Assembly: GCA_046597185.1 (NCBI GenBank)
Contig: JBKJLF010000370.1
Coordinates: forward strand, 1 to 17,405
Reading direction: 5' to 3'
From: Burkholderiaceae bacterium
Lineage (GTDB): Bacteria; Pseudomonadota; Gammaproteobacteria; Burkholderiales; Burkholderiaceae_D
Length of the DNA: 17,405 bases
Below are positions 219 to 14,890 of this stretch, piece after piece. The notes below the pieces were generated by a model, which saw only the letters and a program-made list of their open reading frames with translations, ran no database searches and was not told the DNA's origin. The position numbers and the translations under genes were made by a program. Position 1 is the stretch's first letter; each line of letters starts with the position of its first letter.

Positions 219-899
219 TCAGCTTGCCTGCCAGAAAAACAAGGCCGTCATCCGCTTCTCATTGTGTTCCACACCAAAATAATTGGTGGCCGAATGCACC
301 AGGTCGGCGCGATACATAAAAATCCGGTTGAACACGTTATCCACCGATAAATCTTCCGCCCACGCCTGCAATGGCAACTTTGTCATACCCAAGGCTTCGC
401 CCAAATTATTATGCGGCGGCGTACATTGATTGCCACCCAGGGTGCCATTCGGATAACGCAAACGATAAAACGAGGTGCCACAATGCGGCTCAGGATTCGG
501 TGACAGATAGATAACGGCAGCATAGCGGCATAATTTTCGTGAATCGCTATGCGGTCTTGGCCCAGATTCTCTTTCACCGACCAATTGCGCGCAATTATGA
601 TTCAGTTTAGCACCTTGTGGCGCTTCTGGTTGCCATAATTTCTTGGACCCTGTCATTTTTTTTACCCAATTTTCAATATAGACTATTTCTTCGGGCGTCA
701 TGGCGTTATGGCTGCGCATGCCGGGCCAAAATTCCTTGGCGTGAGGAAATCCCAATTCCCAATCGGTACGGGAAAATAGCCGCTGGGAAACTTCTTCCGC
801 ATTCGGCAAAAAATTATCTTGAACCCAGTAATCCCGTCCCAGTTGTAATTTTCTATAATTTAGGGTTGGAGGTTTGGATGGTGCAGGTGGTTTCAACAT
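219..899 (-). CDS. Hypothetical protein, 226 aa. Possibly a 2OG-Fe(II) oxygenase-like (double-stranded beta-helix) fold.
   Basis: Long ATG-initiated ORF with a protein-like composition. An HSD triad-like motif (RPHSDSRK) is followed by AVIYLSPNPEPHCGTSFYRLRY, and later DLVHSATNY...HNEKR, which resembles the HxD...H...R pattern of 2OG oxygenases. No family was confidently recognised. It is transcribed divergently from the FHA gene. Confidence 0.55.
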   Translation of the reverse strand: MLKPPAPSKPPTLNYRKLQLGRDYWVQDNFLPNAEEVSQRLFSRTDWELGFPHAKEFWPGMRSHNAMTPEEIVYIENWVKKMTGSKKLWQPEAPQGAKLNHNCAQLVGERESGPRPHSDSRKLCRYAAVIYLSPNPEPHCGTSFYRLRYPNGTLGGNQCTPPHNNLGEALGMTKLPLQAWAEDLSVDNVFNRIFMYRADLVHSATNYFGVEHNEKRMTALFFWQAS

Positions 900-1072: not shown

Positions 1073-2626
1073 ATGATCAAATGCGCCAATCCGAATCATC
1101 CTTTTTGCACCCAATGGGTCTTACCCGGTGCAGCGGTATGTGGCGCGCAACATGTTCAGCCTGGAGTAACCGTGACACCACTCCCCGCCAAAACACTGGA
1201 TACAAACAGCAATACGCCATTGACAGACAAGGCGCGCCAAGCCGCCATTGAGCACGCCAAACAAACCTTGGCTCAATCCCAGTCCCACTCCCAGCCCCAC
1301 TCCCAGCCCCACTCCCAGTCGCCCCCTATTCAAGCGGCATTGCAAACCAGCCCCAAATCGAATCGGCGTAGTGCTTCAAATATTGAAACCGCCATACCCT
1401 ATTTACATTTTAGCGGCTTTGATCCACGCGCTGCAGGTGGTCGGCAAACGCTGAAAATAGAATTACTCGGCATGGCCGCCGAGTTAGGCACCCAACTGGA
1501 ATTGAGCGTGCATTCCGAATTAGTAAGCAATGGCCGGGCCGAACATATTTTTGTGCGCACCACCCGTGGCCATTGGCGGCCGGTATTACTCGAATTTTCT
1601 TCCCGTAATCGCGAACACGGGCAATATCGCATGGATATTGAATTGAAATATCTGTTTGGCGGGAAAATCAGTCGGCAATGGGTTTGCACGCCAGTATTAT
1701 TGGTGCCACGCAAAGATGCCAGCCTGGATGATATTCACCGGATTTTTTTGGGGCGACATAAAAATGTGAAAGTGATGGTGGATGATGCCTCGATTGCCAA
1801 AATCAGCGGTTATCAATCAGCCGACCAATTCGACATCACCACCAAAAACGCGTCGATTGCACAGCTCGACTTTAGCGCGCCCAAAGGTAAAATCGATGTT
1901 GGCTTTACCAGCATTGCCTGGGATGAAGATTTGCTTGAAATTGATATCCAGCAGCAGGCCATCTTTCATCCGGACCCCGCTACCTGCGCCGTGCTCTCCA
2001 ACCCGCTTTGCCAGCCGCAATTATTTCAGCTCTACGCGCTCGATCAAATCGTGATTGGGCGGCATGATGATCAGGCATCGGTCGCCAATATTTTGCTAAG
2101 GCAACACAATCCAGTCAGCCCCGAATCAACTATTGAAACCAAGCCTAATTCCGCCACCGAAACCAGCTTAACCCGCAGAATTAGCGCACGCCATGCGGTA
2201 ATCCGCCTGATTGAACAACATTTTGAAATCGAAGATATTTCCCGTTTTGGTTTGTTGATTAATGGCAAATGGCCAGGCAAGGGCAAGTCGGTGTTACTCA
2301 AGAGCGATATGCGTTTGGGTTTTACTGCCAGCTTTAAAGATATTGTCAACTTGCAGGTGGTGGCCTTGAGCCGCCATGCTTTGGTGCTGCAAACCCAGGA
2401 TTTGAGCGAATGTTTTTATTGCCTGGTGCCCGAGATGGGGATCACCGCAACGCCGCCGAATTGGCCGCATCATCTGCCGCTGCTGTATCATCAGCATGGC
2501 GGTTTTTGGCATTGGGATCAAGACCAGCAAAAAGCCAGTGCGCTCAGTAATGCCAGCGGTTTGACTGGCTTACAAGGCTTTGCCAGCGCCTATCAATTTC
2601 AACATGGTGGCACCTTGACTGCCTGA
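1073..2626 (+). CDS. Zinc-ribbon-like N-terminus plus low-complexity SQPH repeats plus an FHA (forkhead-associated, phosphothreonine-binding) domain protein, 517 aa.
   Basis: The N-terminus MIKCANPNHPFCTQWVLPGAAVCGAQ resembles a degenerate zinc ribbon (C...NP..FC....PGAxxCGA). A stop codon at 1040 precludes any upstream extension. An FHA signature is present: IVIGRHDDQ ... ISARHAVI ... FEIEDISRFGLLINGK (G-R ... S-R-H ... S-x-x-G ... N-G). The region between them is of unknown beta-rich type. Confidence 0.8.
   Translation: MIKCANPNHPFCTQWVLPGAAVCGAQHVQPGVTVTPLPAKTLDTNSNTPLTDKARQAAIEHAKQTLAQSQSHSQPHSQPHSQSPPIQAALQTSPKSNRRSASNIETAIPYLHFSGFDPRAAGGRQTLKIELLGMAAELGTQLELSVHSELVSNGRAEHIFVRTTRGHWRPVLLEFSSRNREHGQYRMDIELKYLFGGKISRQWVCTPVLLVPRKDASLDDIHRIFLGRHKNVKVMVDDASIAKISGYQSADQFDITTKNASIAQLDFSAPKGKIDVGFTSIAWDEDLLEIDIQQQAIFHPDPATCAVLSNPLCQPQLFQLYALDQIVIGRHDDQASVANILLRQHNPVSPESTIETKPNSATETSLTRRISARHAVIRLIEQHFEIEDISRFGLLINGKWPGKGKSVLLKSDMRLGFTASFKDIVNLQVVALSRHALVLQTQDLSECFYCLVPEMGITATPPNWPHHLPLLYHQHGGFWHWDQDQQKASALSNASGLTGLQGFASAYQFQHGGTLTA
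1274..1320 (+). repeat. Tandem 12-bp coding repeat (ccactcccagcc, 3 copies plus partials) that encodes SQSHSQPHSQPHSQSP.
   Basis: Read directly at 1285-1296, 1297-1308 and 1309-1320 (last copy ccactcccagtc). It lies in frame within the FHA gene. Confidence 0.7.
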
Positions 2627-2658: not shown

Positions 2659-5058
2659 TCATGGCAGCGGATCAGGGGTCGGTGTGGGCTGCAATTCATG
2701 CAATTCAGGCAATTCGCGCACCACGCGTGCGCCCACGATGTCGTTACGGCCACTGGCACCATAGCCATTGCGCGAAGCCGAGCGTGCATAGCGCGGGCCA
2801 TACAACCAACTGCCGCCACGCAGAACGCGCCGCCCAAGGTCGCCCCCACTCTCCCAGGCACTGCCGTCAATCGGCGCGCCTTCGTAATGGTCATGCACCA
2901 CATCCTGCACCCATTCCCAAACATTACCATGCATATCGTACACACCCCAGGCATTCGGGGTGAACCGTCCCGCTGGCGTGGTGCCACGGCGAAACTCACC
3001 TTTTGGCCCGCTGTTATAGGTAAAATTACCGTCGTAATTGGCCAGATCGGTATGAATTTGATCGCCAAAATGAAATGCCGCCTTGCTGCCTGCGCGCGCG
3101 GCGAATTCCCATTCCGCCTCCGAAGCCAGGCGGTATACATGACCGGTGACGCTGGAGAGCCAGGCGCAATAGCTTTGCACATCATGCCAACTGATCCACA
3201 CCACCGGGTGGGTGTCGTCTTGCGCAAAACCCGGTTGCTGCCAATTATTTTCACTCTCATCCTGCCAACCGGTGGCCTTGGCAAACTGACGCCACTCGCC
3301 GACGCTGATCGGGTGTTTGGCGATGGCAAAGCCATGTTCGATACCAACCCAATGTGGCGGCGTTTCACGCCGCAACCATGAACCGGCCGCGCCTGCATGC
3401 AAGGCAGTTTGGCGCTCGGTTTCGGAAGAACCCATCAAAAAGCGCCCGGCAGGCAATACCACCAACAAGGGGCCAACGCCAGAATGGTCGAGAAAAGTAT
3501 CGCGAAACGCCACCCCCGGCGCTTCCGGCTGGATTTGGGCCTGGCTCTCGCGCAACCGCGCTTGCGCCTGTTCGGCGCGTTTTTGCTGGGCCAGTAGTTG
3601 CTCCTGGCGTTTGCGCTCTTGCTCTTGGCGTTTGCGCTCTTGCTCCTGGCGCGCCGCTTTTTCTTCTTGCGCCTGGCGCTGTTGCTGTTCCTCGCGCAAG
3701 CGCCGCGCTTGCTCACGCAGGGCGGCGGTACGCTCCACGGCTTGCTGTTTGCGTTGCTCCTGCGCCAGTTTTTGTGCCTGCTTTTGCGCCGATTCCTGCG
3801 CCAGAATTTGGGCTTGAACTTGTGCCTGCGCTTGGGCCTGAGCCTGAGCCTTTGCCTGGGCCTGCTTTTTCTGCTGCTCTTGCTGCTGCTGTTGCTGCTG
3901 TTGCTGCTGTTGCGACAGCGGCGCACGCCCTGCCAGCACGTTGGCGGGTACAGGCGTTACTTGCGCCGAAGGCGTAGTGACATGCACCGCCGCCAACCTG
4001 GGGCCAAGCACAGGCGCGGAAGGTGGCGCAGGCAAAGGTGGCGGCTTGGATAAAACCAACATTTCCGGCTGAAACAAGTCATTCAACAATTCCAGCGCCG
4101 AATGCGGGCGCGCTTCCGGTTGCCAGGCAAAACCACGCTGCAAAATACGCCATTGGCGCGCATCCAGCATGCCCGGTTGCACGGGCACCTGTTGCATCTG
4201 GCGCACATCGCCAAAGGGCAACTCACCCACAATCATTTGGTAAATCATCACCGCCAAGGCATACACATCCAATTGTGGGCCGGGTACGCGCTGGCGCAAA
4301 CCCGCTTCCGGCGCACGGTAGCCGGCCGTGCCAGCATTGGCGGGAATGGACGAACCCACCACATCACGCACGCGGGCAGCGATGCCAAAATCGAGCAATT
4401 TGATTTCACTTTGCCCGGTTAAAAACAAATTACTGGGTTTCAGATCACGGTGTACCAATTGATGTTTGTCCCAGGCATAGCGCAAAGCCTGGGCCACCGG
4501 TTGTAAAAATTGATGTACCTGGGGCATGGTAAACGGGCCGCGTTCGGCCAGGAGGCGATCCAGATCATCGCCTTCCAAATATTCCATGATGATGAAATAA
4601 CAGGTGGTGGCCGGGTCTTGCGCCCATTCGTAGACGCGCACGATATGCTCATGCGCCAGTTTGCGCGCCTTAGTCGCTTCTTCCACCAGCAAGCGCGCAT
4701 GCAAGCTGCTTTGCGTCCATTCTGGCGGCAGGATTTTTAGCGCCACTTTGTCGCTATGGCCCAGTTCGGCCTGGGTGGCCAAATCAATTGCCAACCAAAC
4801 CTGGCCCATGCCGCCCTGGCCCAATTGGCGCTCCAGCCTATAGCGTTTATCGACCGGCCCCAACTCTTGCCCGATTGCCAGACCCAGTTCCGTGCCATTT
4901 TCCGGCGCACGCGCATGCGGCCCACGCTTGGGGCCGGTGGGGGCCAGTTGCGCATCCAAAATGGCGTTTTTGCGACGATCAAATTCTTCCTGGCTGAGCA
5001 AGCCATCATCGTGCAGGGCACGCAATTCATGAATTTTATCTCGGGCGGTCTTACTCAT
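2659..5058 (-). CDS. Soluble Hanks-type Ser/Thr protein kinase, 799 aa. It combines an N-terminal SHOCT-like helix, a poly-Q/charged coiled-coil linker and a C-terminal FGE-sulfatase (SUMF1/DUF323-like) domain.
   Basis: Kinase motifs are present: glycine loop LGQGGMGQVW, beta3 lysine VALKIL, catalytic loop HRDLKPSNLFL, DFGIA, and APE-like GYRAPE. The N-terminus ARDKIHELRALHDDGLLSQEEFDRRKNAIL matches the SHOCT pattern. The linker contains an 11xQ run, AQAQAQAQAQ and (QERKRQE)n. The C-terminus has FGE-type motifs HPVVWISWHDVQSYCAWL, YRLASEAEWEFAARAGS, GNVWEWVQD and RVLRGGSWLYGPRYARSASR. The CxPxR-type catalytic cysteines that follow GGSW in true FGEs are absent. No hydrophobic transmembrane segment is seen. 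Confidence 0.9.
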   Translation of the reverse strand: MSKTARDKIHELRALHDDGLLSQEEFDRRKNAILDAQLAPTGPKRGPHARAPENGTELGLAIGQELGPVDKRYRLERQLGQGGMGQVWLAIDLATQAELGHSDKVALKILPPEWTQSSLHARLLVEEATKARKLAHEHIVRVYEWAQDPATTCYFIIMEYLEGDDLDRLLAERGPFTMPQVHQFLQPVAQALRYAWDKHQLVHRDLKPSNLFLTGQSEIKLLDFGIAARVRDVVGSSIPANAGTAGYRAPEAGLRQRVPGPQLDVYALAVMIYQMIVGELPFGDVRQMQQVPVQPGMLDARQWRILQRGFAWQPEARPHSALELLNDLFQPEMLVLSKPPPLPAPPSAPVLGPRLAAVHVTTPSAQVTPVPANVLAGRAPLSQQQQQQQQQQQEQQKKQAQAKAQAQAQAQAQVQAQILAQESAQKQAQKLAQEQRKQQAVERTAALREQARRLREEQQQRQAQEEKAARQEQERKRQEQERKRQEQLLAQQKRAEQAQARLRESQAQIQPEAPGVAFRDTFLDHSGVGPLLVVLPAGRFLMGSSETERQTALHAGAAGSWLRRETPPHWVGIEHGFAIAKHPISVGEWRQFAKATGWQDESENNWQQPGFAQDDTHPVVWISWHDVQSYCAWLSSVTGHVYRLASEAEWEFAARAGSKAAFHFGDQIHTDLANYDGNFTYNSGPKGEFRRGTTPAGRFTPNAWGVYDMHGNVWEWVQDVVHDHYEGAPIDGSAWESGGDLGRRVLRGGSWLYGPRYARSASRNGYGASGRNDIVGARVVRELPELHELQPTPTPDPLP
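3600..3915. repeat. Low-complexity DNA repeats inside the kinase linker: a 21-bp tandem (ggcgtttgcgctcttgctcYt, 2 copies), gcctgR hexamer runs (3821-3860), and a CTG/TTG triplet tract (3871-3913).
   Basis: Read directly: 3606-3626 and 3627-3647 are near-identical; ctgctgctgttgctgctgttgctgctgttgc encodes poly-Q on the minus strand. Confidence 0.7.
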
Positions 5059-5088: not shown

Positions 5089-5114
5089 TTGATATCAAGA
5101 TCAGGCTTGATCTT
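5089..5114. promoter_or_regulatory. Two adjacent palindromes in the 54-bp intercistronic gap and gene end: TTGATATCAA (5089-5098) and a hairpin aagatca-ggct-tgatctt (5097-5114).
   Basis: Read directly. The 7-bp perfect inverted repeat overlaps the stop codon (5113-5115) of the upstream SPFH gene and precedes the kinase start (5058). It could be an RNA hairpin or processing site, or a protein-binding site. Confidence 0.3.
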
Positions 5115-7230
5115 ATACCAGCGGCGCGCCACATTCGGCACAAAACTTCGCCTTGGGCAAATTAATATGCCCTTGACGACAGGTGCGCATCACCAAAGGC
5201 GGCGGGCTGGCATCGCGGCTGGCTTGCAACATGGCCAACACATGTTCGCGTTCTTTGGCTGCCTGTTGCGCTTGCCACTCTCTTTCCTGCGCTACGCTTT
5301 TGGTGACCAGACCGGGAATAAATTCATTATCCGGCAGCACTTTGGCGGCGGAAATTTGTTCCGCGCTCATGCCGACCTGCACCTGGGTTTTTAAAATATC
5401 GGCCACCAGGCTGGCATTGGGTAAATCGGCCAGCGCCACTTTGGCCAAATCGCTGACCTGATCCAGCGCCGCGTAGCGCGCCAGCCGTTGTTGGTGGTCT
5501 TGCTCCTGCAAGCGCAAGGTATGTTGCCACGCGCCCTCTTGTTCTTGCTGGCGCAGGCGGCTACGCTGTTCTTCGGCGTCGAGTTCATCTTGTTGTTTTG
5601 CTCGTTGCTGCAACAATTCTTGCTGTTGCATGGCGGCATGGGCTTCGATGGTGCGCAGCAATTTTTCTTGTTGCGCCAGTGCATCGGCATTCGCGCCGGC
5701 ACGGGCCAAATCGGCCATTTTTTGCTTTTGCTGATCGATTTGCACCTGGGTTTGGGCATCCAGCACCGCTTCGGAGCGCAATAATTCGCGTTGTTGCTGG
5801 AGTGCCAATTCATCTTGCCAGGCTTGCAGCCGCTCGGCTTCGCGCGTGCGCGCCTGACGTTCCAGCGTGAGCGTGTGCAGGCGCGCCTGCTGCTGCTCGT
5901 CTTCCCATTGTTTTTCGTGTTCGGCGTGTTGCGCTTTCACTTGCCGCAAGCGCGCCAGTTCATCACGCCGGGTTTGTTCGTTGCCGATTTGTTCGATGGT
6001 GGCCAATTGCCGTTGCCATTGCCATTGCAATACTTGTTGCTTGAGTTGTTGCTGCGCCGCCAGAGTAATTTCACGCGCTTCGATTTGTTCCAGCTCCAGC
6101 TCGGTGCGCATTTTAATTTGGGCGATATGGCGCACTTGTTCCCAGCGTTTTTCTTCGGTATGGCGTTGGCTGGCATCTTGCTTGAGATCATGTTCCAGCT
6201 TGGTCAAGACTTCTTGCGCGCCGCGCTCCAGCGCCTGCTTGCGGTTTTGCGCTTCGATGATGCGGCCATACAATTCAATCTCGCGCACACGCAAGGCTTG
6301 CAATTGTTCGCGCTCTTCCAGCACCAGGTGAGCGCGCTGTTCGCGCTGTTCGCGCGCCAGTTGGGCGCGGCGCAATTGTTGGCGTTGGGCTTGTTCTTGC
6401 AACACAATTTGCGCCCATTGCTGCTCGGAATATAATTGCGCCAGCCGTTCGGCGTGTTCGGCCTCGACCCGTTTGGCGTTGAAAATCAAGGCTAAATTGC
6501 CGACCAGTTCACGGTTTTCATTCCATTTTTGATGTTGCAGGCTGAGGGTTTCGACTTGTACCAAACTTAGACCGAAATGCGCCATGCGCAGCGAGAGCGT
6601 GCTTTGCACCCGTTCATTGAGTTGTTCGCGCAATTGGGCATTGTTGACCAATTCCAACAACGATTGGGCCGATAAAAATTCAATCAAGACCTGGCGCAGC
6701 AAAGGTTGCACCAGGGTTTGCAATTGTTCCAATGTGATGGCACCGGGGGCTTGCATGAAGTAGTTGGAAAAGGCCGCCACGGGTTCGATTTTCACGCGCA
6801 GCATACAACTGACATCGAGCGCCAGAAATTCGGCGCTGGCGATGCCAGGTAAATTGAATGTCAGCTCGAAGGGCGTGCTGCGAGTGATCAGGATTTCGGC
6901 AGACCGGTCACACAAGAGTCTATCGAGTCGTCCGAAAAAGTCTTCAATCTGGTATTCACCCGGCGGCACTTCGGCGATGTGTTGCCCTTGCAAAATATAG
7001 GCACGCGCGGTGGCGGGCACTTGCAGGGTTTTACTGAATACCCCGGACAGGCGTTCGATACCGAAGAACACCGCCACTTCGTTTTCCGCTGGCAACCAGC
7101 GGTTATTACGCAGCAGCGGGTGGGCTTGCCCCAGGCTGATGCCGCATTGGGCACAATAATGGCCATCGCTTTGATTGACGTGATCACAGCGCGGACAAGG
7201 CGTGCCGCGTACTCCGAATAATGTAAACAT
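5113..7230 (-). CDS. Flotillin-like SPFH/band-7 domain protein, 705 aa, with an N-terminal zinc ribbon, a coiled coil of about 400 aa and a C-terminal zinc ribbon.
   Basis: The N-terminus has CPRCDHVNQSDGHYCAQCG (C-x2-C...C-x2-C). The C-terminus has CRQGHINLPKAKFCAECGAPLV (zinc_ribbon_2-like ...AKFCxxCGAPL). An SPFH-like core follows the N-terminal ribbon: ILQGQHIAEVPPGEY...FELTFNLPGIASAEFLALDVSCMLRVKIEPV...LLRQVLIEFLSAQSLLELVNNAQLREQLNERVQ...HFGLSLVQVETL. This is followed by a Q/E/R/A/L-rich heptad-like sequence. A strong SD (GGGGGAG) lies upstream of ATG 7230. Confidence 0.8.
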   Translation of the reverse strand: MFTLFGVRGTPCPRCDHVNQSDGHYCAQCGISLGQAHPLLRNNRWLPAENEVAVFFGIERLSGVFSKTLQVPATARAYILQGQHIAEVPPGEYQIEDFFGRLDRLLCDRSAEILITRSTPFELTFNLPGIASAEFLALDVSCMLRVKIEPVAAFSNYFMQAPGAITLEQLQTLVQPLLRQVLIEFLSAQSLLELVNNAQLREQLNERVQSTLSLRMAHFGLSLVQVETLSLQHQKWNENRELVGNLALIFNAKRVEAEHAERLAQLYSEQQWAQIVLQEQAQRQQLRRAQLAREQREQRAHLVLEEREQLQALRVREIELYGRIIEAQNRKQALERGAQEVLTKLEHDLKQDASQRHTEEKRWEQVRHIAQIKMRTELELEQIEAREITLAAQQQLKQQVLQWQWQRQLATIEQIGNEQTRRDELARLRQVKAQHAEHEKQWEDEQQQARLHTLTLERQARTREAERLQAWQDELALQQQRELLRSEAVLDAQTQVQIDQQKQKMADLARAGANADALAQQEKLLRTIEAHAAMQQQELLQQRAKQQDELDAEEQRSRLRQQEQEGAWQHTLRLQEQDHQQRLARYAALDQVSDLAKVALADLPNASLVADILKTQVQVGMSAEQISAAKVLPDNEFIPGLVTKSVAQEREWQAQQAAKEREHVLAMLQASRDASPPPLVMRTCRQGHINLPKAKFCAECGAPLV

Positions 7231-7375
7231 GGAAGCTCCCCCACAGTATCACGCGATTTTAACAGGGTACGGTGGGGTTGAACGGGGAATTAGCGGGGGA
7301 ATAAGGGTTCTGTTTTAAAATACAAATACCCGGCACTTATTATTTTTTGCCGATATTTCGTTTAAACTGCTTTGC

Positions 7376-7987
7376 ATGAACAAATTGTATACTCCCGCCA
7401 TCCTCACCCTTACCCAAAACAAGGGCTTGTTGCGTCCGCGTGACCTACGCGCAGCGGGCTTGCCGCGCACGGCTTTGGCGCACATGGTAGCGCAGGGGCA
7501 ACTGCTCAAGCTTGGGCACGGCCTGTATGCGCACCCGGAACGCACGCCCGACGCGCACGAGGCGCTGGCCGAAGTGGCGATCAAAAGTGCACAAGGGGTG
7601 GTGTGCTTGATTTCTGCTTTGCGGTTTCATAATCTCACCACTCAGCAATCCGCTGCCGTTTGGCTGGCCATTCCACACAAGGCGCACCCGCCCCGGCTGG
7701 CCTACCCCCGCTTGCAATTGGTACGGATGTCAGGTAGTGCCATGATCGAAGGAATCGAGGTGGTTGATGTGAATGGCGTGGCCGTGCGTGTGTTTTGCCT
7801 GGCCAAAACGGTGGTTGATTGTTTTAAATATCGCAATAAGATTGGGTTGGATGTGGCCCTGGAAGCGCTGCGCGAAGCGATCAACGGTCAGCGTGTAACA
7901 CAGGATGAGCTGTGGCATTATGCCAGCTTGTGCCGGGTGGCCAATGTGATGCGGCCATATATGGAAATAATGGGTGCGTTGGGGTGA
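7376..7987 (+). CDS. AbiEi-family (type IV toxin-antitoxin / abortive-infection antitoxin-like) winged-HTH protein, 203 aa.
   Basis: The N-terminus LTLTQNKGLLRPRDLRAAGLPRTALAHMVAQGQLLKLGHGLYAHPE matches the AbiEi_4 wHTH pattern (G.v.r.dL...G......l...v..G.L.r...GvY). The C-terminal domain is ...GVVCLISALRFHNLTTQ... The gene is transcribed divergently from the SPFH/kinase operon across a 145-bp AT-rich gap. Confidence 0.75.
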   Translation: MNKLYTPAILTLTQNKGLLRPRDLRAAGLPRTALAHMVAQGQLLKLGHGLYAHPERTPDAHEALAEVAIKSAQGVVCLISALRFHNLTTQQSAAVWLAIPHKAHPPRLAYPRLQLVRMSGSAMIEGIEVVDVNGVAVRVFCLAKTVVDCFKYRNKIGLDVALEALREAINGQRVTQDELWHYASLCRVANVMRPYMEIMGALG

Positions 7988-8284
7988 CGATGACAAAAAA
8001 TTGGTTGGCTGGCGCGCCATTGATGGAAGTAGTTGACGTGTTGCGAATATTGTTGGAAGAATGAAATGGGGATACCAAATTTGAAGTGTAACGCCTATTG
8101 CAATCGCGAATCGAACCCCAAAAACCTCAGCTTACTTAAGCAAAGCGATCCGTTCAACTTCCTAGCAGCCTGTCGGAGATAAGGCAAAAAAAGACTCAAA
8201 AATTAACCACTTGAGCGATAAAAAATGTATAATATTGCTTATAAATATAATAGATCACTTTTGCCATGACCAATTTCATCCCAT

Positions 8285-8578
8285 CTACCCGCAACGCCTG
8301 TTTTTTATTCCCCCCAACAAATGTTGTGTGTAATGCCCGTTGAGCTAGCGCATGCCCGCCGACAAATTGGCGGCGGGCGTTTCGATCAGGATGTGATAAT
8401 GATTGCCCATTTGGCACCATACGTGGACAATCCAATTGAATCGTTCACAGACCAAGGCGAGTACGGTCAACCACGCGCGGCGGTCATCGTCGTCCCAAAA
8501 GATATCCTCCCGCCGATCCCCGCGTGAGGTGACGTGATATACCGCGCCAGCAAATTCAAGTCGTAGAGGTCGGGCCAC
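8285..8578 (-). pseudogene. IS200/IS605-like Y1 (HUH) transposase pseudogene (REP-associated tyrosine transposase-like).
   Basis: The 77-aa ORF MARPLRLEFAGAVYHVTSRGDRREDIFWDDDDRRAWLTVLALVCERFNWIVHVWCQMGNHYHILIETPAANLSAGMR matches the N-terminal half of about 230-aa Y1 transposases, including the HUH motif GNHYHIL. It ends at TAG (8345-8347). Homologues, as recalled, read RQLNGVYTQ there, and the next in-frame codons still read LNGHYTQ, so this is an in-frame nonsense codon (CAG to TAG). Similarity is lost after YTQ, which indicates a further frameshift or deletion. The C-terminal half is absent. Confidence 0.7.
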
Positions 8579-9014
8579 GGGGGCTGTTTAGCACATAGTT
8601 TGGGAAATGTTGGAATGTTAGAACTGCCCCTTACTCCCGCTCATTTGAGCCGTGGCTTTGGGGGGCATTACCGCGCTGTTTGCTTTGGGCTTGGTATTGA
8701 AGGCGATTTTGTAGTTTGGCTCAGCTTGGCCGTGCGCCAATCATTCGGGCTTGGTAAGGCAACCCGACAGCTTAATCAAATCAACGCAACCAGTTTGGCT
8801 TGCGCGATATTGATTTGCCAGATTTTGCAGGCATTGAAATTTTCTGCTCGTTTCTGTCAGCATGGCAGCGCTTACCTGTGGTTGTGTGCGAATCAATTAA
8901 TTGCATTCCATTGACTCAGTTGCATCACTGTTACACAGCCGTGCGACAGGTGGCCCAAGTGAATGTAACGGCTGTTATCGCCATATTCGATGGGGAACCA
9001 GACTTGATCGGCAA

Positions 9015-9242
9015 TCAAACCAGGTTCTTCTTCCCGGCGATCCGGCCTTTCATCGCCCCGTCGGCTACCGTAAAAAATGTCCGGCCATGATTTGATTCGA
9101 GAATTTGCAACTTGGTGTACTCAAGGAGCGGAAGCAAAGCATTGGATTTCCGCTCAAGCACATTCAACCACCCGGAGGCAGGGATTTTATTGACGTAGGC
9201 GGTCTTGGTGGGCAAGCTGGCATTGGCTAGGCGTTGGTTCAT
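9015..9242 (-). CDS. Hypothetical 75-aa ORF. It is overlapped by a third stop-free frame (8896..9120) and is probably part of a disrupted gene.
   Basis: Translationally coupled to the 9239..9550 ORF. A 73-codon open stretch in another frame (...SWPDIFYGSRRGDERPDRREEEPGLIADQVWFPIEYGDNSRYIHLGHLSHGCVTVMQLSQWNAIN) overlaps it and continues to 8896. Confidence 0.25.
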   Translation of the reverse strand: MNQRLANASLPTKTAYVNKIPASGWLNVLERKSNALLPLLEYTKLQILESNHGRTFFTVADGAMKGRIAGKKNLV

Positions 9243-9550
9243 ATTGGATTCGCTTTCAACATCAGAGCATCGGCAAGCTTCTGAAGTAATTTAAAATTCC
9301 CAGGTGAAAACGGATTGTCGTAAGTCTCAATTCGCTCAATAGAACTTGGGTCGGAAAATAATTCATTAATAATGGCAAGTTGCCTAAGGATTTGTGGCCT
9401 TAGTTTTTCTGTCTCCTTGGCGTTCATTTCATTTTCAATAATTTTATTTTTAATTAGTGCCTGCCAGAAAACCCTCTTTTTTAAAAAACGACTTCCTATA
9501 ATTTGGGCAGCCATTCCCGATTCATTAATTTTAGCACGACAAAATGGCAC
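9239..9550 (-). CDS. Hypothetical protein, 103 aa, in an AT-rich segment. Probably the first piece of a frameshifted gene remnant.
   Basis: ATG ORF in low-GC DNA. Its stop overlaps the start of the next ORF by ATGA. No family recognised. Confidence 0.3.
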   Translation of the reverse strand: MPFCRAKINESGMAAQIIGSRFLKKRVFWQALIKNKIIENEMNAKETEKLRPQILRQLAIINELFSDPSSIERIETYDNPFSPGNFKLLQKLADALMLKANPI

Positions 9551-9592
9551 TTCAAATCTAACGATGTGTTATCCAAGTAAAAACACAAAATT

Positions 9593-10192
9593 TTAAACGA
9601 GCAGATCCACCGACTTGCAATATCGATCATTAAAACTGTGGGAATTTTTACTATAACTATGCCGCCAATTTATCCGACGGCACCTATTTTGTGCGCTTTG
9701 CTTCACGCGCCAATTGCTGCTGTTCCTGCTGCCATAAAATGTGGCCGATCCGGTGGATGTTGCGCGCCACAATCGCCAACGCCACATAACATTTAAAGCC
9801 TTCGATGCCATGAGCCGGGCCAGATATGGGAAAAGCAACACCGCAGCAAGCCTGCTGCCCCGCCAGAACAGAACAATGGTTGCGGCGATAAGCGCCCAAA
9901 GTAGAAGTACTTCGGCGAAGGCCAGACCACCCTGATGCCAGACAAAGAACAACCAAGTCCATAGGGCGTTAGCGGCCAACTGGAAGATAAAGACAAGCAG
10001 CGCACTCTTGGCACCCGCAAAGCCTTGCGCTCGCCAAACCAGCCATGCGGATATGCCCATGAGCACGTAAAGCACCGACCAGACCGGGCCAAACAGCCAG
10101 CCCGGCGGTGCCCATGAAGGACGAATCAGCGCCCGATAGAATGTCCAAGCGCCACGACACCACACCGCGGGAATCAATAAAGTGTTCGACAA
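9593..10192 (-). CDS. tspO: TspO/MBR (tryptophan-rich sensory protein) homologue. It is N-terminally truncated and carries an atypical 55-aa C-terminal extension. Possibly a pseudogene.
   Basis: FYRALIRPSWAPPGWLFGPVWSVLYVLMGISAWLVWR, ...LWTWLFF... and FPYLA...LNVMWRWRL match the TspO pattern WY..L.KP.W.PP.W.F.PVW..LY..M..A...V and the C-terminal PYL...LN...RLN region. Only about 13 residues precede the WY motif, and they come from an alt-start TTG that overlaps the ycaO-fragment frame. TM1 is therefore missing. The ORF reads on through AT-rich DNA past the point where the TspO homology (about 158 aa in canonical TspO) ends. Confidence 0.5.
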   Translation of the reverse strand: MSNTLLIPAVWCRGAWTFYRALIRPSWAPPGWLFGPVWSVLYVLMGISAWLVWRAQGFAGAKSALLVFIFQLAANALWTWLFFVWHQGGLAFAEVLLLWALIAATIVLFWRGSRLAAVLLFPYLARLMASKALNVMWRWRLWRATSTGSATFYGSRNSSNWRVKQSAQNRCRRINWRHSYSKNSHSFNDRYCKSVDLLV

Positions 10193-10441
10193 AGTTATTG
10201 GGTTCGGTTACGGCATGGCTTTCAAAGGTGGGCGGGGGCAAGTCGTTGAGTCCTTCAAAGCTGCGGCCTTGCAGTAATTCGGTCAGGCTGCGCTCCAGCG
10301 CAACCTCCAGGCTGGGGTGCGCGCCAAAGGAAGCGAACACGCCGCCGGTGCGCGGGTTCATCAAGGTGACGCACATGACTGGATATTGCCCGCCTAACAG
10401 CATAGCCGAAAAATAGGGCATCGGTGTCAATCATCATTAAT
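10115..10441 (-). pseudogene. ycaO: Internal fragment of ycaO (YcaO-domain protein, ribosomal protein S12 methylthiotransferase accessory factor homologue). About 100 codons remain. The 5' two-thirds of the gene is missing.
   Basis: YFSAMLLGGQYPVMCVTLMNPRTGGVFASFGAHPSLEVALERSLTELLQGRSFEGLNDLPPPTFESHAVTEPNNFVEHFIDSRGVVSWRL aligns closely with my recollection of E. coli YcaO (...YDGSLGGQYPVICVVLFNPANGTCFASFGAHPDFGVALERTVTELLQGRGLKDLDVFTPPTF...HFIDSSGLISWDL...). The fragment begins abruptly next to the vapC stop (10442). It is followed, out of frame, by the tspO fragment. Confidence 0.7.
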
Positions 10442-10873
10442 TTATTGCACCAGATAAATCCCCACCCCCGCCTTGCTGGCAGCTTTACGCAAATCCTTGT
10501 CCAGCGTGGCTATCGGCAACTGGCATCGTCTGGCCAGTTCGAGATATTGGGCATCATAACCAGAGAGCCGAAATTCCCGCGATACGGCAGCAACTGCCAA
10601 TTGAATGGCAGCAGGTGAGGCAGCGTCAAGCCGGATTGGCAATTGGCCAAGTTGGTAGATAAAGCCGGTTACTGCGGACTCGCCAAAGCCATTGCGCTCT
10701 TCGGCGCAGCGCAATACGTGTATGGTTTCGGTGTACCAAAGCGCAGGTACGGTAGCATAGACCGTATCCAATGAATCGAGAACCAGATCGGCATAAACAC
10801 GATCAGCTTCCGACCCATCTTGCAATGCCCAGCGGATGGTAACCGAGGTATCCAGAACGAAACTGGTTTCCAT
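10442..10873 (-). CDS. vapC: PIN-domain ribonuclease toxin (VapC family), 143 aa.
   Basis: FVLDTSVTIRW (N-terminal Asp), ...YTETIHVL..., SGYDAQYLELA and PIATLDKDL supply the conserved acidic PIN residues. The start overlaps the antitoxin stop (ATGA at 10873). Confidence 0.85.
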   Translation of the reverse strand: METSFVLDTSVTIRWALQDGSEADRVYADLVLDSLDTVYATVPALWYTETIHVLRCAEERNGFGESAVTGFIYQLGQLPIRLDAASPAAIQLAVAAVSREFRLSGYDAQYLELARRCQLPIATLDKDLRKAASKAGVGIYLVQ

Positions 10874-11109
10874 TATTTACGGCCCTGCTGGCGCATTTCC
10901 GCAAAGCTTGCCTGATCAATCATGCCAACCCGTGTGGCTTTTATCGCTTTGATGGCCGCACGTGTTTGTTGTTCTGCACCGCTGGCGCTGGGCACAAGAT
11001 CAGCGACGGGCAAGCCACGATTGGTAATTGTAATTCTTTCGCCTTGTTGCACCTGTTTGATTAAGTCCGGCAATTTGGTTTTCGCCTCATAAATGCCATA
11101 TTCGCGCAT
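10873..11109 (-). CDS. Phd/YefM-family type II antitoxin, 78 aa.
   Basis: MREYGIYEAKTKLPDLIKQVQQGERITITNRGLPVADLVP matches the Phd/YefM N-terminal pattern (..eaK..l.eli..v..Ge.v.ItrrGkpvAvLv). It is translationally coupled to vapC. Confidence 0.8.
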   Translation of the reverse strand: MREYGIYEAKTKLPDLIKQVQQGERITITNRGLPVADLVPSASGAEQQTRAAIKAIKATRVGMIDQASFAEMRQQGRK

Positions 11110-11220
11110 GATTACCTCCAGCCATAGGTTTGATTAATATGGTCTAGTCTACCTGTCAGACCTAAACTATGCAAGCCGGAAATGATTCTATGCAGCGCAT
11201 AAGCGCTAAAGTACATTCAA

Positions 11221-11258
11221 TTCGTCTTCGCTGGTGAAGTTGGTGGCGAACACCACAA
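11221..11258. repeat. A 36-bp imperfect copy of an internal recR segment (tcgYcttcgctggtgaagttggtggcSaacaccac). The second copy lies inside recR at 11686..11721.
   Basis: Direct comparison shows 34/36 identical bases. On the minus strand the downstream copy would encode VVFATNFTSEDE, against [12 protein letters not shown] in recR. Homology stops abruptly at both ends. Confidence 0.6.
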
Positions 11259-11265
11259 TTGCAGC

Positions 11266-11502
11266 TTAATTAACCCCCATACCATTACATATCAAAGGTT
11301 GCGCTTTGCAATACGGCTCCAAGCTCAGAAAAACGGCTTTAGCAGCCACCTCGGGCGAAAAAATATGCCCGCCAAGCTTAAACTTCACCCACACACCTTT
11401 TTGCTTAATCAAACTTTTCAAAAATAGTTGTTGCCCATTAAAACGACTTGCTTGTAAATTGACGGGAATGATGAACTCACTCATATTCGCGTATGATTTC
11501 AT
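11266..11502 (-). CDS. Hypothetical 78-aa ORF in AT-rich DNA between the recR-like repeat and recR.
   Basis: ORF only. No recognisable motifs. May be non-coding. Confidence 0.2.
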   Translation of the reverse strand: MKSYANMSEFIIPVNLQASRFNGQQLFLKSLIKQKGVWVKFKLGGHIFSPEVAAKAVFLSLEPYCKAQPLICNGMGVN

Positions 11503-11538: not shown

Positions 11539-12141
11539 TCAAGTACTCCGCCGATCCAACATCGCACGCGCAATCGTGCCCGCATCCACATATTCCAGCT
11601 CGCCCCCAATCGGCACGCCACGCGCCAGCCGGCTCACGTGCAAACCACGCGCTTTTAAAATCTCACTAATATAATGCGCCGTGGCCTCGCCTTCGCTGGT
11701 GAAGTTGGTGGCCAACACCACTTCGGTCACCACGCCATCGCTGGCGCGATGCAGCAATTGTTCCAAATGCAAATCTTTCGGCAAAATACCATCCAAGGGC
11801 GAGAGATGCCCCATCAGCACGAAATACAAGCCTTTAAAGGTGAGGGTTTGCTCGATCATCACTTGATCCGCCGGGGTTTCCACCACGCACAGCAAATGCG
11901 GGTCGCGCCCATCGTCGGCGCAGGTGGCGCAGATTTCGGTTTCGGTGAAGGTGTTGCAATGGGCGCAATGCAACACGGTCTCGGTTGCGTTTTGCAAGGC
12001 CTCGGCCAATTGCAAAGCACCGCTGCGGTCGCGGTGCAGTAAATGAAATGCCATGCGCTGCGCCGTTTTGGGGCCAACGCCGGGCAGATGACGCAAAGCG
12101 TCAATCAGTTTTTCCAGACTGGTAGACGCTTTCACGCTCAA
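11539..12141 (-). CDS. recR: Recombination protein RecR.
   Basis: [17 protein letters not shown] (HhH), the C4 zinc finger [16 protein letters not shown], and the Toprim segment [21 protein letters not shown] are all present. The protein is collinear with E. coli RecR. Start is TTG 12141 or GTG 12135. Confidence 0.95.
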
Positions 12142-12151
12142 GCCTTCATCA

Positions 12152-12478
12152 TTAAAACGGCATCTTGAAGCCGGGTGGCATCGGCATGCCCGCCGTTAAC
12201 GAACCCATTTTTTCAGCCGAGGTTTCTTCTGCCTTGCGCACCGCATCGTTAAATGCCGCAGTGACCAAATCTTCCAACATGTCTTTATCATCGGCCAACA
12301 GCGACGGGTCGATGGTGACGCGCTTGACCACGTTTTTGCACGTCATCAACACCTTCACCAAACCCGCACCGGATTGGCCTTCCACTTCCACCAGGGCCAG
12401 TTGATCCTGCGCCTTTTTCATATTGTCTTGCATTGCCTGAGCCTGTTTCATTAAACCGGCCAATTGGTTTTTCATCAT
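12152..12478 (-). CDS. ybaB: Nucleoid-associated protein YbaB/EbfC.
   Basis: [17 protein letters not shown]...[10 protein letters not shown]...[24 protein letters not shown]...PPGFKMPF is nearly collinear with E. coli YbaB. The ORF-track start at 12496 adds 6 residues. ATG 12478 is the more likely start. Confidence 0.95.
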
Positions 12479-12519
12479 GGCATACTCCTTAATCAATCAT
12501 TAAAATCAGTCAAATCATG

Positions 12520-14727: not shown

Positions 14728-14769
14728 TTCTGCGAGCTGACCGATGACTATGAAACTTCAACAGAACTT

Positions 14770-14880: not shown

Positions 14881-14884
14881 CGCT

Positions 14885-14890
14885 ATTATA
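14885..14890 (-). promoter_or_regulatory. -10 box (TATAAT on the minus strand) for ffs.
   Basis: The reverse complement of 14885-14890 is TATAAT, about 7-10 nt upstream of the predicted RNA 5' end. No convincing -35 was seen. Confidence 0.4.

What the first reader, a model, noticed from the sequence alone, without database searches (positions are those of the whole stretch)
2659..5058. Unusual kinase architecture: N-terminal SHOCT helix, active Hanks kinase, poly-Q/charged coiled coil, cysteine-less FGE-sulfatase domain
SHOCT is normally a short C-terminal oligomerisation or membrane-association helix. Here it opens the protein. The kinase has all the catalytic motifs, so it is probably active. 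The C-terminal FGE-like domain keeps the fold-defining tryptophan-rich motifs but has LYGPRYARSASR where formylglycine-generating enzymes carry the catalytic cysteine pair. It is therefore probably a ligand-sensing module rather than an enzyme. The linker (11xQ, AQ repeats, QERKRQE repeats) is extremely low-complexity and could drive oligomerisation or condensation. No transmembrane helix is present, so sensing is cytoplasmic.
Basis: partly seen in the sequence, partly recalled or inferred. Interest (0 to 1): 0.6.

Follow-up and report, generated by a model that had tools for sequence, protein, structure and literature searches.

The report
SHOCT–kinase–PvdO-like signalling protein
The gene encodes a real but already catalogued type of bacterial signalling kinase that carries a non-enzymatic-looking FGE/PvdO-like domain; it is conserved across Oxalobacteraceae-type bacteria with two partner genes, so it is ordinary in architecture and untested in function.

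Summary
ORF 2659-5058 (-) encodes a 799-aa protein with an N-terminal SHOCT hairpin, a Hanks kinase with all catalytic motifs, a long charged helix, and a C-terminal FGE-sulfatase domain that lacks both FGE catalytic cysteines. It has no transmembrane segment.

The architecture is not unusual. More than 100 full-length homologues (50-87% identity) in Massilia, Duganella, Janthinobacterium and Pseudoduganella share it, and SHOCT is their most conserved segment. NCBI already names them "bifunctional kinase/FGE family". The 2013 SHOCT paper described an N-terminal SHOCT–kinase–FGE-sulfatase protein. Kinase–FGE-like fusions are also common in cyanobacteria.

The 11-Q run occurs only in this sequence and looks like triplet slippage. 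The linker shows no heptad pattern, so a coiled coil is not supported.

The C-terminal domain is closest to PvdO (44% identity). Its loop at the FGE active-site position is invariant in the family.

New here: the kinase sits in a conserved module, just downstream of a zinc-ribbon–SPFH–helical protein and convergent with a zinc-ribbon–β-sandwich–FHA protein.

Most likely it is a cytoplasmic phospho-signalling module resembling a fused TagR–PpkA–Fha1 pathway. Function is inferred, not shown. It is a new member of a known kind, of modest interest.

The parts
2659..5058 (-). Gene for the 799-aa SHOCT–Hanks kinase–charged helix–FGE/PvdO-like protein
   Evidence: ORF; Pfam domains; 120 full-length homologues
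4957..5040 (-). SHOCT bi-helical hairpin (residues 7-34), the most conserved segment of the family
   Evidence: PF09851 at 30.9/34.7 bits against cutoff 27; mean identity 0.82; AF2 helices 5-17 and 23-36 at pLDDT 79-90; 9 synonymous and 0 non-synonymous codon changes against L004
4843..4896 (-). Conserved pre-kinase motif G55-T-E-L-G-L-x-x-G-Q-E-x-G-P (residues 55-72; T56, E57, L60, E65, G67, P68 and R72 invariant)
   Evidence: Family alignments. Function unknown.
4069..4842 (-). Hanks-type Ser/Thr kinase domain (residues 73-330) with all catalytic motifs
   Evidence: PF00069 E 1e-44; motifs invariant in 44 sequences; Foldseek hits to the PknB kinase domain
3913..4068 (-). Pro-rich, non-conserved linker (residues 331-382), largely absent from homologues
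   Evidence: Mean identity 0.07 and gap fraction 0.63; pLDDT below 50
3541..3912 (-). Long Q/A/E/R/K-rich helix (residues 383-506). The family keeps its character but varies its length: the whole kinase-to-FGE linker (residues 331-510) spans 104-195 aa. No heptad signal.
   Evidence: AF2 single helix 383-506; composition and linker length range; heptad test
3871..3913 (-). CAG/CAA triplet array encoding the 11xQ run; a lineage-specific slippage expansion
   Evidence: TRF period 3, 14.3 copies; a Q run of 11 occurs in only 1 of 120 homologues
2704..3528 (-). FGE-sulfatase (C-type-lectin-like) domain of PvdO type (residues 511-785)
   Evidence: PF03781 E 8e-57; PvdO 5hha E 7e-46, 44% identity; Foldseek top hits PvdO and ToxD
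2767..2820 (-). Loop at the position of the FGE active site (R747-G-G-S-W-L-Y-G-P-R-Y-A-R-S-A-S-R-N764). It has no cysteine and is nearly invariant in the family.
   Evidence: Alignment to human FGE: C336 aligns with Y753; C341 falls opposite A758 by ungapped extension. Invariant residues R747, G748, G749, W751, Y753, P755, R756, Y757, R759, R763, N764.
5113..7230 (-). Upstream gene, probably co-transcribed (54-nt gap). Encodes a 705-aa protein: zinc ribbon, SPFH/Band-7 domain, a roughly 400-aa charged helical region, and a C-terminal zinc ribbon.
   Evidence: Band_7 E 2.5e-8 (34.6 bits against 23.6) for residues 118-227, and zinc ribbons at residues 10-33 and 687-704; same result for the Duganella orthologue; directly upstream of the kinase in 19 of 20 loci
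1073..2626 (+). Convergent partner gene. Encodes a 517-aa protein: Cys-rich N-terminal knuckle, disordered region, β-sandwich, FHA domain (about residues 300-450), and a C-terminal β unit.
7339..7366 (-). Sigma-70-like promoter match upstream of the SPFH gene (weak evidence)
   Evidence: TTTAAA-16-AATAAT, 9 of 12 matches. No promoter-like or terminator-like site lies in the SPFH-kinase gap.

Best explanation
This is the local orthologue of a conserved soluble Hanks-type Ser/Thr kinase found in Oxalobacteraceae-type betaproteobacteria. It works within a three-gene phospho-signalling module.

Shown:
- The domain order is SHOCT hairpin, active-looking kinase, long charged helix, then a Cys-less PvdO-like FGE-fold domain.
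- None of the three proteins has a TM segment.
- The kinase gene follows a zinc-ribbon–SPFH–helical protein gene at a short distance on the same strand.
- It is paired, convergently, with an FHA-domain protein gene.

Inferred:
1. The C-terminal FGE-like domain is a binding module, not a formylglycine-generating enzyme. It recognises one fixed, probably endogenous, ligand or partner protein and so controls or targets the kinase.
2. The roughly 120-residue helix acts as a stiff spacer or lever between the binding domain and the kinase.
3. The SHOCT hairpin docks the kinase onto the SPFH scaffold or the inner face of the membrane.
4. The phosphothreonines made by the kinase, on itself, on the SPFH protein or on other targets, are read by the FHA protein.

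In logic this resembles the TagR (FGE-like) to PpkA (kinase) to Fha1 (FHA) pathway of Pseudomonas. Here the FGE-like part is fused to the kinase and everything sits on the cytoplasmic side.
For: Architecture and intact catalytic motifs.

Conservation:
- Family-wide conservation, with SHOCT the best-conserved segment.
- SPFH protein adjacent in 19 of 20 loci and FHA protein nearby in 16 of 20.
- The FHA family lies on the same contigs and in the same genera as the kinase family.
- The FHA fold and its GR and SxxH phosphothreonine-binding residues are conserved.

Binding rather than FGE chemistry:
- No Cys at the FGE active-site positions.
- No DinB domain.

Precedents for FGE-like domains as binding modules:
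- Tsi3 immunity proteins (10.1101/2021.05.21.445229).
- STAND sensors (PMC13581612).
- DGR and "FGS" domains, always C-terminal (PMC7159879).
- TagR is an FGE-sulfatase protein (PMC13411936) that activates PpkA (PMC6082577).

Fixed ligand: the surface that is hypervariable in DGR targets is invariant here.

Cytoplasmic location:
- No TM segment or signal peptide.
- All six PvdO cysteines in the aligned region are replaced.

SHOCT–SPFH link:
- SHOCT is most often fused to band-7 domains (PMC3581485).
- SHOCT has been predicted to bring domains to the inner leaflet of the membrane (PMC11237479).
Against: - No experiment exists for any member of this family. Kinase activity, substrates, ligand and localisation are all inferred.
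- The closest solved relative, PvdO, is considered a biosynthetic protein. The active-site-equivalent loop is invariant, which fits catalysis as well as binding.
- The SHOCT helices are highly charged, with only a narrow hydrophobic stripe, so direct membrane insertion is not obvious.
- No phosphatase partner is present in the window.
- In 4 of 20 loci the FHA gene is not within the fetched flank. In one locus (L006) the SPFH gene is not adjacent.
- The full-length AlphaFold2 model is poor (mean pLDDT 63), so inter-domain geometry is unknown.
Confidence: 0.55

Rival explanations
1. Truly bifunctional enzyme. [quoted passage not shown] It would act on a small molecule or peptide, with the kinase regulating it or regulated by it.
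For: - PvdO is the best match: E 7e-46, 44% identity, and the top NCBIfam hit at 201 bits.
- ToxD, a toxoflavin biosynthesis protein, is the next structural hit.
- The loop at the active-site position is invariant in the family.
Against: - PvdO purified from E. coli had no cofactor and no activity, and its chemistry is undefined (PMC6206403).
- The NCBIfam score is far below the PvdO equivalog cutoff of 500.
- The only PvdO glutamate in the active-site-equivalent loop aligns with Y753. Whether that is the glutamate reported as essential could not be checked.
- There is no DinB domain as in EgtB/OvoA.
- The window holds no pyoverdine, toxoflavin or sulfatase genes.
- The domain is cytoplasmic, whereas PvdO is periplasmic.
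Confidence: 0.2
2. Anti-phage or conflict sensor kinase. The FGE-like domain would recognise an invader protein and the kinase would trigger a defence response, as in defence kinases and FGE-sensor STAND proteins.
For: - PADLOC hits to PD-T4-6 and Mad6 kinases, up to 175 bits, and NCBIfam MADS6.
- FGE-like domains act as sensors in STAND and ternary conflict systems. Pkinase–CLec proteins are DGR targets (PMC10907252).
- The gene pair borders accessory and defence-type genes: AbiEi and a Phd/PIN pair in the window, and AbiEi, a NACHT-WD40 protein and DarT/Macro in L004.
Against: - The PADLOC and NCBIfam hits rest on the kinase domain; where they run past residue 330 they end before the FGE-like domain.
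- The SPFH–kinase–FHA trio keeps its synteny across genera while the flanks change. The defence genes occupy a variable slot that holds a PBP-like operon in Massilia and Duganella.
- Identity falls off gradually with taxonomic distance (50-87%), which suggests vertical inheritance.
- The putative recognition surface is invariant rather than diversified, and the ORFs scanned in the window include no reverse transcriptase.
Confidence: 0.1
3. The FGE-like domain is not a signal sensor but a substrate-docking or scaffold-docking domain. It would bind a partner constitutively, such as the SPFH protein's helical region or the FHA protein's β-sandwich. Regulation would enter elsewhere, for example through the zinc ribbons or SPFH assembly.
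For: - Tsi3 shows that FGE-like domains can act purely through protein-protein binding.
- Co-conservation with two partner proteins.
- Invariant surface loop.
Against: Nothing here distinguishes this reading from ligand sensing.
Confidence: 0.25

Closest known systems
[quoted passage not shown] of Massilia, Duganella, Janthinobacterium and Pseudoduganella (NCBI naming); also the SHOCT–Pkinase–PG_binding–FGE-sulfatase protein noted in the SHOCT paper (PMC3581485)
   Same: Same domain order over the full length at 50-87% identity, the same N-terminal SHOCT sequence, and the same neighbours.
   Different: This copy has an extra Pro-rich insert and a unique 11xQ expansion in the linker. It lacks the PBP-like five-gene block found upstream in Massilia and Duganella. 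It has no PG_binding domain.
Pseudomonas aeruginosa H1-T6SS threonine phosphorylation pathway (TagR, PpkA, Fha1)
   Same: An FGE-sulfatase-fold protein acts on a Hanks kinase whose phosphothreonine output is read by an FHA-domain protein.
   Different: - There, TagR is a separate periplasmic protein and PpkA is a transmembrane kinase with a periplasmic domain.
- Here the FGE-like domain is fused to the kinase, and no protein has a TM segment.
- The window holds no T6SS genes and no PppA phosphatase.
PvdO (PDB 5HHA), periplasmic pyoverdine maturation protein
   Same: Closest solved relative of the C-terminal domain: 44% identity over 250 aligned positions, with the same lack of the FGE cysteine pair.
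   Different: - PvdO is a stand-alone, Sec-exported protein in the pvdMNO context.
- The domain here is the C-terminus of a cytoplasmic kinase.
- All six PvdO cysteines in the aligned region, and the PvdO Glu in the WGEPP loop, are replaced.
Cyanobacterial 4-Cys-prefix kinase–FGE-sulfatase proteins, and Chlamydia Pkn1
   Same: Kinase followed by a C-terminal Cys-pair-less FGE-like domain, usually with no TM segment, and a small N-terminal "prefix" module.
   Different: - The prefix there is a 4-Cys zinc ribbon (NF045510) rather than SHOCT.
- The linker is shorter.
- No homologue of the window's SPFH or FHA protein was detected in the loci fetched.
- Identity is about 40-48% in the best segment.
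Formylglycine-generating enzyme (SUMF1/FGE)
   Same: Same fold and Pfam family, E about 1e-15 to solved FGEs.
   Different: Both catalytic, copper-binding cysteines are absent, so it cannot work as an FGE.

Membership tests
Hanks-type (eukaryote-like) Ser/Thr protein kinase, PF00069 | Gly-rich loop, VAxK lysine, helix-C glutamate, HRDxKxxN catalytic loop, DFG, APE | tested here: met
   G80-Q-G-G-M-G, K108, E126/E127, H203-RDLKPSN, D223-FG and A249-PE are all present and invariant in 44 homologues. Pfam E 1e-44.
Hanks-type (eukaryote-like) Ser/Thr protein kinase, PF00069 | Phosphotransfer activity | not testable with these tools
   Requires an autophosphorylation assay on purified protein.
Formylglycine-generating enzyme sensu stricto (SUMF1/FGE) | FGE-sulfatase (C-type-lectin-like) fold | tested here: met
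   PF03781 E 8e-57; phmmer hits to solved FGEs at E about 1e-15; Foldseek top hits PvdO and ToxD.
Formylglycine-generating enzyme sensu stricto (SUMF1/FGE) | Catalytic, Cu(I)-binding cysteine pair (human C336 and C341) | tested here: not met
   Cys336 aligns with Y753, and Cys341 falls opposite A758 by ungapped extension. The only Cys in the domain is C631.
PvdO (NCBIfam NF051459 equivalog) | Score above the equivalog cutoff | tested here: not met
   201 bits against a cutoff of 500.
PvdO (NCBIfam NF051459 equivalog) | Periplasmic stand-alone protein in a pyoverdine (pvdMNO/pvdP) context | tested here: not met
   The domain is the C-terminus of a kinase with no TM segment or signal peptide. 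The ORFs scanned in the window include no pyoverdine genes.
EgtB/OvoA/SenA sulfoxide synthases | N-terminal DinB_2 domain forming the iron site together with the FGE-like domain | tested here: not met
   No DinB hit in Pfam. NCBIfam SenA and OvoA hits are partial and far below their cutoffs.
SHOCT (PF09851) | Roughly 28-residue two-helix motif scoring above the Pfam gathering threshold | tested here: met
   30.9 and 34.7 bits against 27; AF2 helices 5-17 and 23-36.
SHOCT (PF09851) | C-terminal position (typical, but not obligatory) | tested here: not met
   The motif is at residues 7-34 of 799. N-terminal SHOCT is documented for Tic20, CorA and one kinase–FGE protein (PMC3581485).
TagR–PpkA–Fha1 threonine phosphorylation pathway (T6SS) | FGE-like activator, Hanks kinase and FHA reader | tested here: met
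   All three elements are present: the first two fused in one protein, the third encoded convergently.
TagR–PpkA–Fha1 threonine phosphorylation pathway (T6SS) | Transmembrane kinase with periplasmic sensing, PppA phosphatase, linkage to T6SS genes | tested here: not met
   No TM segment. No PP2C or T6SS genes in the window or in the orthologous loci listed. The FHA protein reaches only 19.5 bits against 120 for TagH/VI_FHA.
Defence kinases (PADLOC PD-T4-6 / Mad6) | Full-length match to a defence-system model and patchy, island-borne distribution | tested here: inconclusive
   Hits rest on the kinase domain and never reach the FGE-like domain. The locus is syntenic across genera but borders defence-type genes in two loci.
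DGR-diversified FGE/CLec target proteins | Hypervariable C-terminal region plus a nearby reverse transcriptase and template repeat | tested here: not met
   The C-terminal region is nearly invariant in the family. The window ORFs scanned by Pfam include no reverse transcriptase.

The most novel reading that the evidence does not exclude
The trio of zinc-ribbon–SPFH protein, SHOCT–kinase–FGE-like protein and zinc-ribbon–β-sandwich–FHA protein is an undescribed sub-membrane phospho-signalling module found throughout this lineage. It would be a cytoplasmic, fused counterpart of TagR–PpkA–Fha1. In it, SHOCT would be the adaptor that docks the kinase onto an SPFH scaffold, which would give the orphan SHOCT domain its first defined partner. 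In Massilia and Duganella the module would be wired to a membrane PBP-like sensor operon.
Probability: 0.25. Interest if true: 0.5.

Novelty: new member of a known kind. Interest (0 to 1): 0.3.

Why it matters
In architecture this is a routine member of an already annotated family, so the finding itself is not a discovery.

Its modest value is that nobody has tested the family's function. SHOCT and the non-catalytic FGE-like domains are both very abundant: the domain search found about 171,000 50%-identity clusters related to the C-terminal domain. Both still lack a defined molecular role in signalling.

The conserved pairing with an SPFH scaffold protein and an FHA reader gives concrete, testable partners:
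- Does SHOCT bind the SPFH protein?
- What does the FGE-like domain bind?
- Which phosphothreonine does the FHA protein read?

Tried and rejected
- **Full-length AlphaFold2 model (44-sequence alignment).** It was poor: mean pLDDT 63, with the kinase N-lobe and FGE residues 711-768 below 50. I used it only for the SHOCT hairpin and the long helix, and for a Foldseek check. It cannot be used for domain geometry or to inspect the ligand pocket.
- **Coiled-coil reading.** The heptad a/d test on the linker of all 120 homologues gave no signal above shuffles, so I rejected "coiled coil" in favour of a long charged single helix.
- **SHOCT-like prefix in a planctomycete.** The N-terminus of the L071 kinase–FGE protein looked SHOCT-like by eye but gave no significant Pfam or NCBIfam hit. 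I dropped it.
- **4-Cys prefix on the FHA protein.** Its N-terminus resembles the cyanobacterial 4-Cys kinase prefix but gave no significant NF045510 hit. I keep it only as a Cys-rich, confidently folded knuckle.
- **The PvdO glutamate.** I tried to locate the glutamate reported as essential, but the primary paper (PMC5818194) is not held. I could not confirm that it is the Glu aligned with Y753.
- **Source organism.** The exact-sequence cluster look-up returned no names, and the genome scan's best named relatives are only 50-54% identical. The organism is therefore only inferred to be an Oxalobacteraceae-like betaproteobacterium with about 53% GC.
- **Transcription signals.** The promoter and terminator scans were close to shuffle expectation and add little. 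No hairpin lies between the convergent stop codons.
- **Extra genes upstream in Massilia and Duganella.** Pfam and NCBIfam gave no hits for the four unknown ORFs.
- **Representative search with the FGE domain.** The top hits were dominated by giant multi-repeat FGE-domain proteins. This was useful for abundance only.


Full report
**1. What is in the sequence**

The minus-strand ORF 2659..5058 encodes 799 aa. An in-frame TGA lies four codons upstream of the ATG, so the start cannot be further upstream.

Pfam finds three domains:
- SHOCT at residues 7-34, 30.9 bits against a gathering score of 27. The N-terminus scanned alone gives 34.7 bits, E 1.3e-8.
- Pkinase at residues 73-293, E 1e-44.
- FGE-sulfatase at residues 532-781, E 8e-57.

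All Hanks-kinase catalytic motifs are present: G80xGxxG, K108, the helix-C glutamate, H203-RDLKPSN, D223-FG and A249-PE.

The protein has only two cysteines, C153 and C631. In the HMMER alignment to human FGE, catalytic Cys336 falls on Y753. Ungapped extension of that alignment puts Cys341 on A758.

The highest 19-residue hydropathy mean is 1.44, and that window is kinase helix F. There is therefore no TM segment.

**2. Is the SHOCT segment real protein?**

Yes.
- All 120 best homologues begin with the same M(M)QTARDKIRELRALHxDGLLSxxEFDxRKNAILDA sequence.
- In a 120-sequence alignment, SHOCT is the most conserved part of the protein. Mean identity to the query is 0.82, against 0.66 for the kinase and 0.64 for the FGE-like domain.
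- Against the 87%-identical homologue, the first 46 codons differ at 9 codons, all synonymously.
- AlphaFold2 models it confidently as a two-helix hairpin, residues 5-17 and 23-36, pLDDT 79-90.

**3. Is the architecture unusual?**

No.
- The homologue search returned more than 4,000 hits. The best 120 are full-length proteins of 718-813 aa at 50-87% identity, with the same Pfam set.
- Where named, they come from Massilia, Duganella, Pseudoduganella, Janthinobacterium and Telluria. [quoted passage not shown]
- The scan of one genome per species found full-length matches (residues 1-783) only in Oxalobacteraceae.
- The same scan found kinase + FGE-like fusions (residues about 40-780) in many cyanobacteria, planctomycetes, Blastocatellia and Latescibacterota.
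[quoted passage not shown] It also noted Chlamydia Pkn1 as a kinase + FGE-sulfatase protein, and listed other N-terminal SHOCT cases (Tic20, CorA) (PMC3581485).
- A kinome atlas lists FGE-sulfatase as one of three standard domain organisations of its "Proteo1" family (10.1101/2025.01.12.632604).
- The cyanobacterial fusions carry a different small N-terminal prefix, the 4-Cys zinc ribbon NF045510 (30.4 bits against 24). Like this protein, they have no TM segment. Some planctomycete and latescibacterial versions do have one.

The general pattern is [small prefix]–kinase–linker–FGE-like domain. This protein is the SHOCT-prefixed version of it.

**4. The linker**

- The 11-Q run is specific to this sequence. 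Of 120 homologues only this one has a Q run longer than 4, and the 87% homologue has at most 3.
- At DNA level the run is a period-3 CTG/CAG array at 3871-3913, which looks like a slippage expansion.
- The Pro-rich stretch at residues 331-382 is also mostly absent from homologues.
- What is conserved is a linker of 104-195 residues, rich in A, E, R, K and Q, with a few invariant positions: R443, L447, R448 and R455.
- AlphaFold2 draws residues 383-506 as one continuous helix at pLDDT 60-75.
- Large hydrophobic residues make up only 8-16% of the linker. The best heptad register fills a/d positions no better than shuffled sequence.

I therefore read the linker as a long charged single helix acting as a spacer or lever. 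A coiled coil is not supported, though it is not strictly excluded. Poly-Q-driven condensation is unlikely to be a selected function.

**5. The C-terminal domain**

- By sequence it is closest to PvdO (PDB 5HHA): E 7e-46, 44% identity over 250 aligned positions. The next hits are ToxD, FGEs, PorK/GldK and a DGR variable protein.
- Foldseek on the model also ranks PvdO and ToxD first.
- NCBIfam's PvdO model scores 201 bits against an equivalog cutoff of 500. The domain is therefore PvdO-like, not PvdO.
- The R-G-G-S-W...R-S-A-x-R motif that replaces the FGE cysteine loop is the generic form seen in PorK, ToxD, PvdO and multi-repeat FGE-domain proteins.
- The domain class is enormous: 171,174 50%-identity clusters at E ≤ 1e-3, and 15,532 at E ≤ 1e-30.
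- Within this family the loop is nearly invariant: R747, G748, G749, W751, Y753, P755, R756, Y757, R759, R763 and N764. It is therefore functionally constrained.
- This is the same region that diversity-generating retroelements hypermutate in FGE/CLec target proteins (PMC7159879; PMC10907252). Invariance here argues for one fixed, probably endogenous, ligand rather than an arms-race target.
- All six PvdO cysteines in the aligned region are replaced. Together with the lack of any export signal, this fits a cytoplasmic location (inference).

Precedents exist for FGE-like domains working as binding modules without catalysis:
- Tsi3 immunity proteins (10.1101/2021.05.21.445229).
- STAND sensors (PMC13581612).
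- "FGS" domains, which are always C-terminal.

A catalytic role of the PvdO or ToxD type cannot be excluded. However, PvdO itself has never shown activity or a cofactor in vitro (PMC6206403).

**6.

*Upstream gene.* The 705-aa ORF 5113..7230 lies 54 nt upstream on the same strand.
- It has an N-terminal and a C-terminal zinc ribbon.
- Once the long helical tail is removed, it also shows an SPFH/Band-7 domain: E 2.5e-8, 34.6 bits against 23.6.
- The Duganella orthologue gives the same result.

*Downstream gene.* The 517-aa ORF 1073..2626 is convergent with the kinase gene.
- It carries an FHA domain.
- Its AlphaFold2 model has mean pLDDT 74. It shows a confident Cys-rich N-terminal knuckle, a β-sandwich, an FHA domain and a C-terminal β unit.
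- The GR and SxxH phosphothreonine-binding residues are invariant in 45 homologues.

*Conservation across loci.* I ran tblastn with the window's proteins over all 86 fetched loci plus the window; 20 of these carry the orthologous kinase.
- The SPFH gene is directly upstream of the kinase in 19 of those 20 loci.
- The FHA gene lies within 10 kb downstream in 16 of them.
- The FHA family has the same genus range and shares contigs with the kinase family.

*Flanking genes.*
- In Massilia, Duganella and one closer relative, five further genes precede the SPFH gene. These are a 1093-aa single-TM protein with a C-terminal PBP-transpeptidase-like domain, and four ORFs with no family hits.
- In the window and in the 87% relative, that slot instead holds accessory and defence-type genes such as AbiEi. 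The relative also has a NACHT-WD40 protein and DarT/Macro there.
- None of the three module proteins has a TM segment.

**7. Mechanism: best reading**

*Shown:* an intact kinase, a Cys-less PvdO-like domain, a conserved SHOCT hairpin, and conserved linkage to an SPFH protein and an FHA protein.

*Inferred:* the FGE-like domain binds a fixed ligand or partner and controls or targets the kinase through the long helix. SHOCT docks the kinase on the SPFH scaffold or on the inner face of the membrane. The FHA protein reads the resulting phosphothreonines.

Two points from the literature support a link between SHOCT and SPFH:
- SHOCT is most often fused to band-7 domains.
- SHOCT has been predicted to recruit domains to the inner leaflet of the membrane (PMC11237479).

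The one experiment on record did not support SHOCT self-oligomerisation.

The closest functional analogy is the Pseudomonas TagR, PpkA, Fha1 pathway. TagR is an FGE-sulfatase-domain protein that activates the kinase PpkA (PMC6082577). The present system fails the membership tests for that pathway:
- no TM kinase;
- no periplasmic sensing;
- no PppA phosphatase;
- no T6SS genes.

**8. Rivals**

(a) A truly bifunctional enzyme with a catalytic PvdO/ToxD-like domain.

(b) A defence or conflict sensor kinase. The PADLOC hits rest on the kinase domain only. The trio is syntenic across genera while the defence genes sit in a variable flank.

(c) The FGE-like domain is a constitutive docking site rather than a sensor.

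None of these can be excluded without experiments.

**9. Verdict**

The absence of FGE chemistry, the cytoplasmic location and the likely active kinase hold. The claims of an unusual architecture, a coiled coil, poly-Q condensation and SHOCT oligomerisation do not.
- This is a new member of a known, already annotated but experimentally untouched family.
- The useful addition is the conserved SPFH–kinase–FHA module.
- Interest is modest, 0.3.

Noticed in passing
window 7300-11500: An accessory patch lies between the SPFH gene and recR.
- An AbiEi antitoxin-like gene at 7376-7987 (+), PADLOC 262 bits, with no AbiEii toxin ORF beside it.
- An IS200-like transposase fragment at 8345-8578 (-).
- Overlapping TspO (9593-10192) and YcaO-fragment (9969-10430) ORFs, which look like pseudogene debris.
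- A Phd/PIN toxin-antitoxin pair at 10442-11109 (-).
- GC drops to 0.46-0.48 over this stretch.
   Followed up: partly
L004 1-7615: In the 87%-identical relative, the same slot upstream of the SPFH gene holds AbiEi, a 1670-aa NACHT/WD40/pentapeptide protein, a Phd antitoxin and DarT + Macro (DarTG). This site appears to be a variable defence-island insertion point.
   Followed up: no
L008 58-7646 (also L001, L003, L005, L007, L009, L013-L018): In Massilia, Duganella and Pseudoduganella, five co-oriented genes precede the SPFH–kinase pair.
- A 1093-aa single-TM protein with a C-terminal PBP-transpeptidase-like domain.
- Four ORFs of about 440, 200, 385 and 365 aa with no Pfam or NCBIfam hit.
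- The last of these has two "G(W/C)S(D/S)AWH(L/A)GRV" repeats.

This block is absent from the window.
   Followed up: partly
L024, L025, L036, L040, L042, L052, L059, L060, L065: Cyanobacterial kinase–FGE-like proteins begin with a 4-Cys zinc ribbon (NCBIfam NF045510 "4Cys_prefix_kin", confirmed for L024) and have no TM segment. In the window's module, zinc ribbons sit instead on the two partner proteins: SPFH protein residues 10-33 and 684-704, and FHA protein C4/C12/C23.
   Followed up: partly
window 219-899 (-): A 226-aa DUF6445 protein is encoded next to the FHA gene. The same neighbour is present in L004 (95% identity) and L005 (84%) but was not detected in the Massilia and Duganella loci.
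   Followed up: no
window 11539-16466 (-): A housekeeping block: recR, ybaB, dnaX (with a long Pro/Ala/Gln-rich insert), the small SRP RNA at 14779-14877 (75 bits) and ubiD.
   Followed up: no
window 1073-2626 (+), residues about 330-372: The FHA domain of the partner protein has an insert of about 40 residues between the conserved GR and SxxH motifs. An aromatic residue (F/Y392) sits where canonical FHA domains have the Asn of the "TNG" loop.
   Followed up: no
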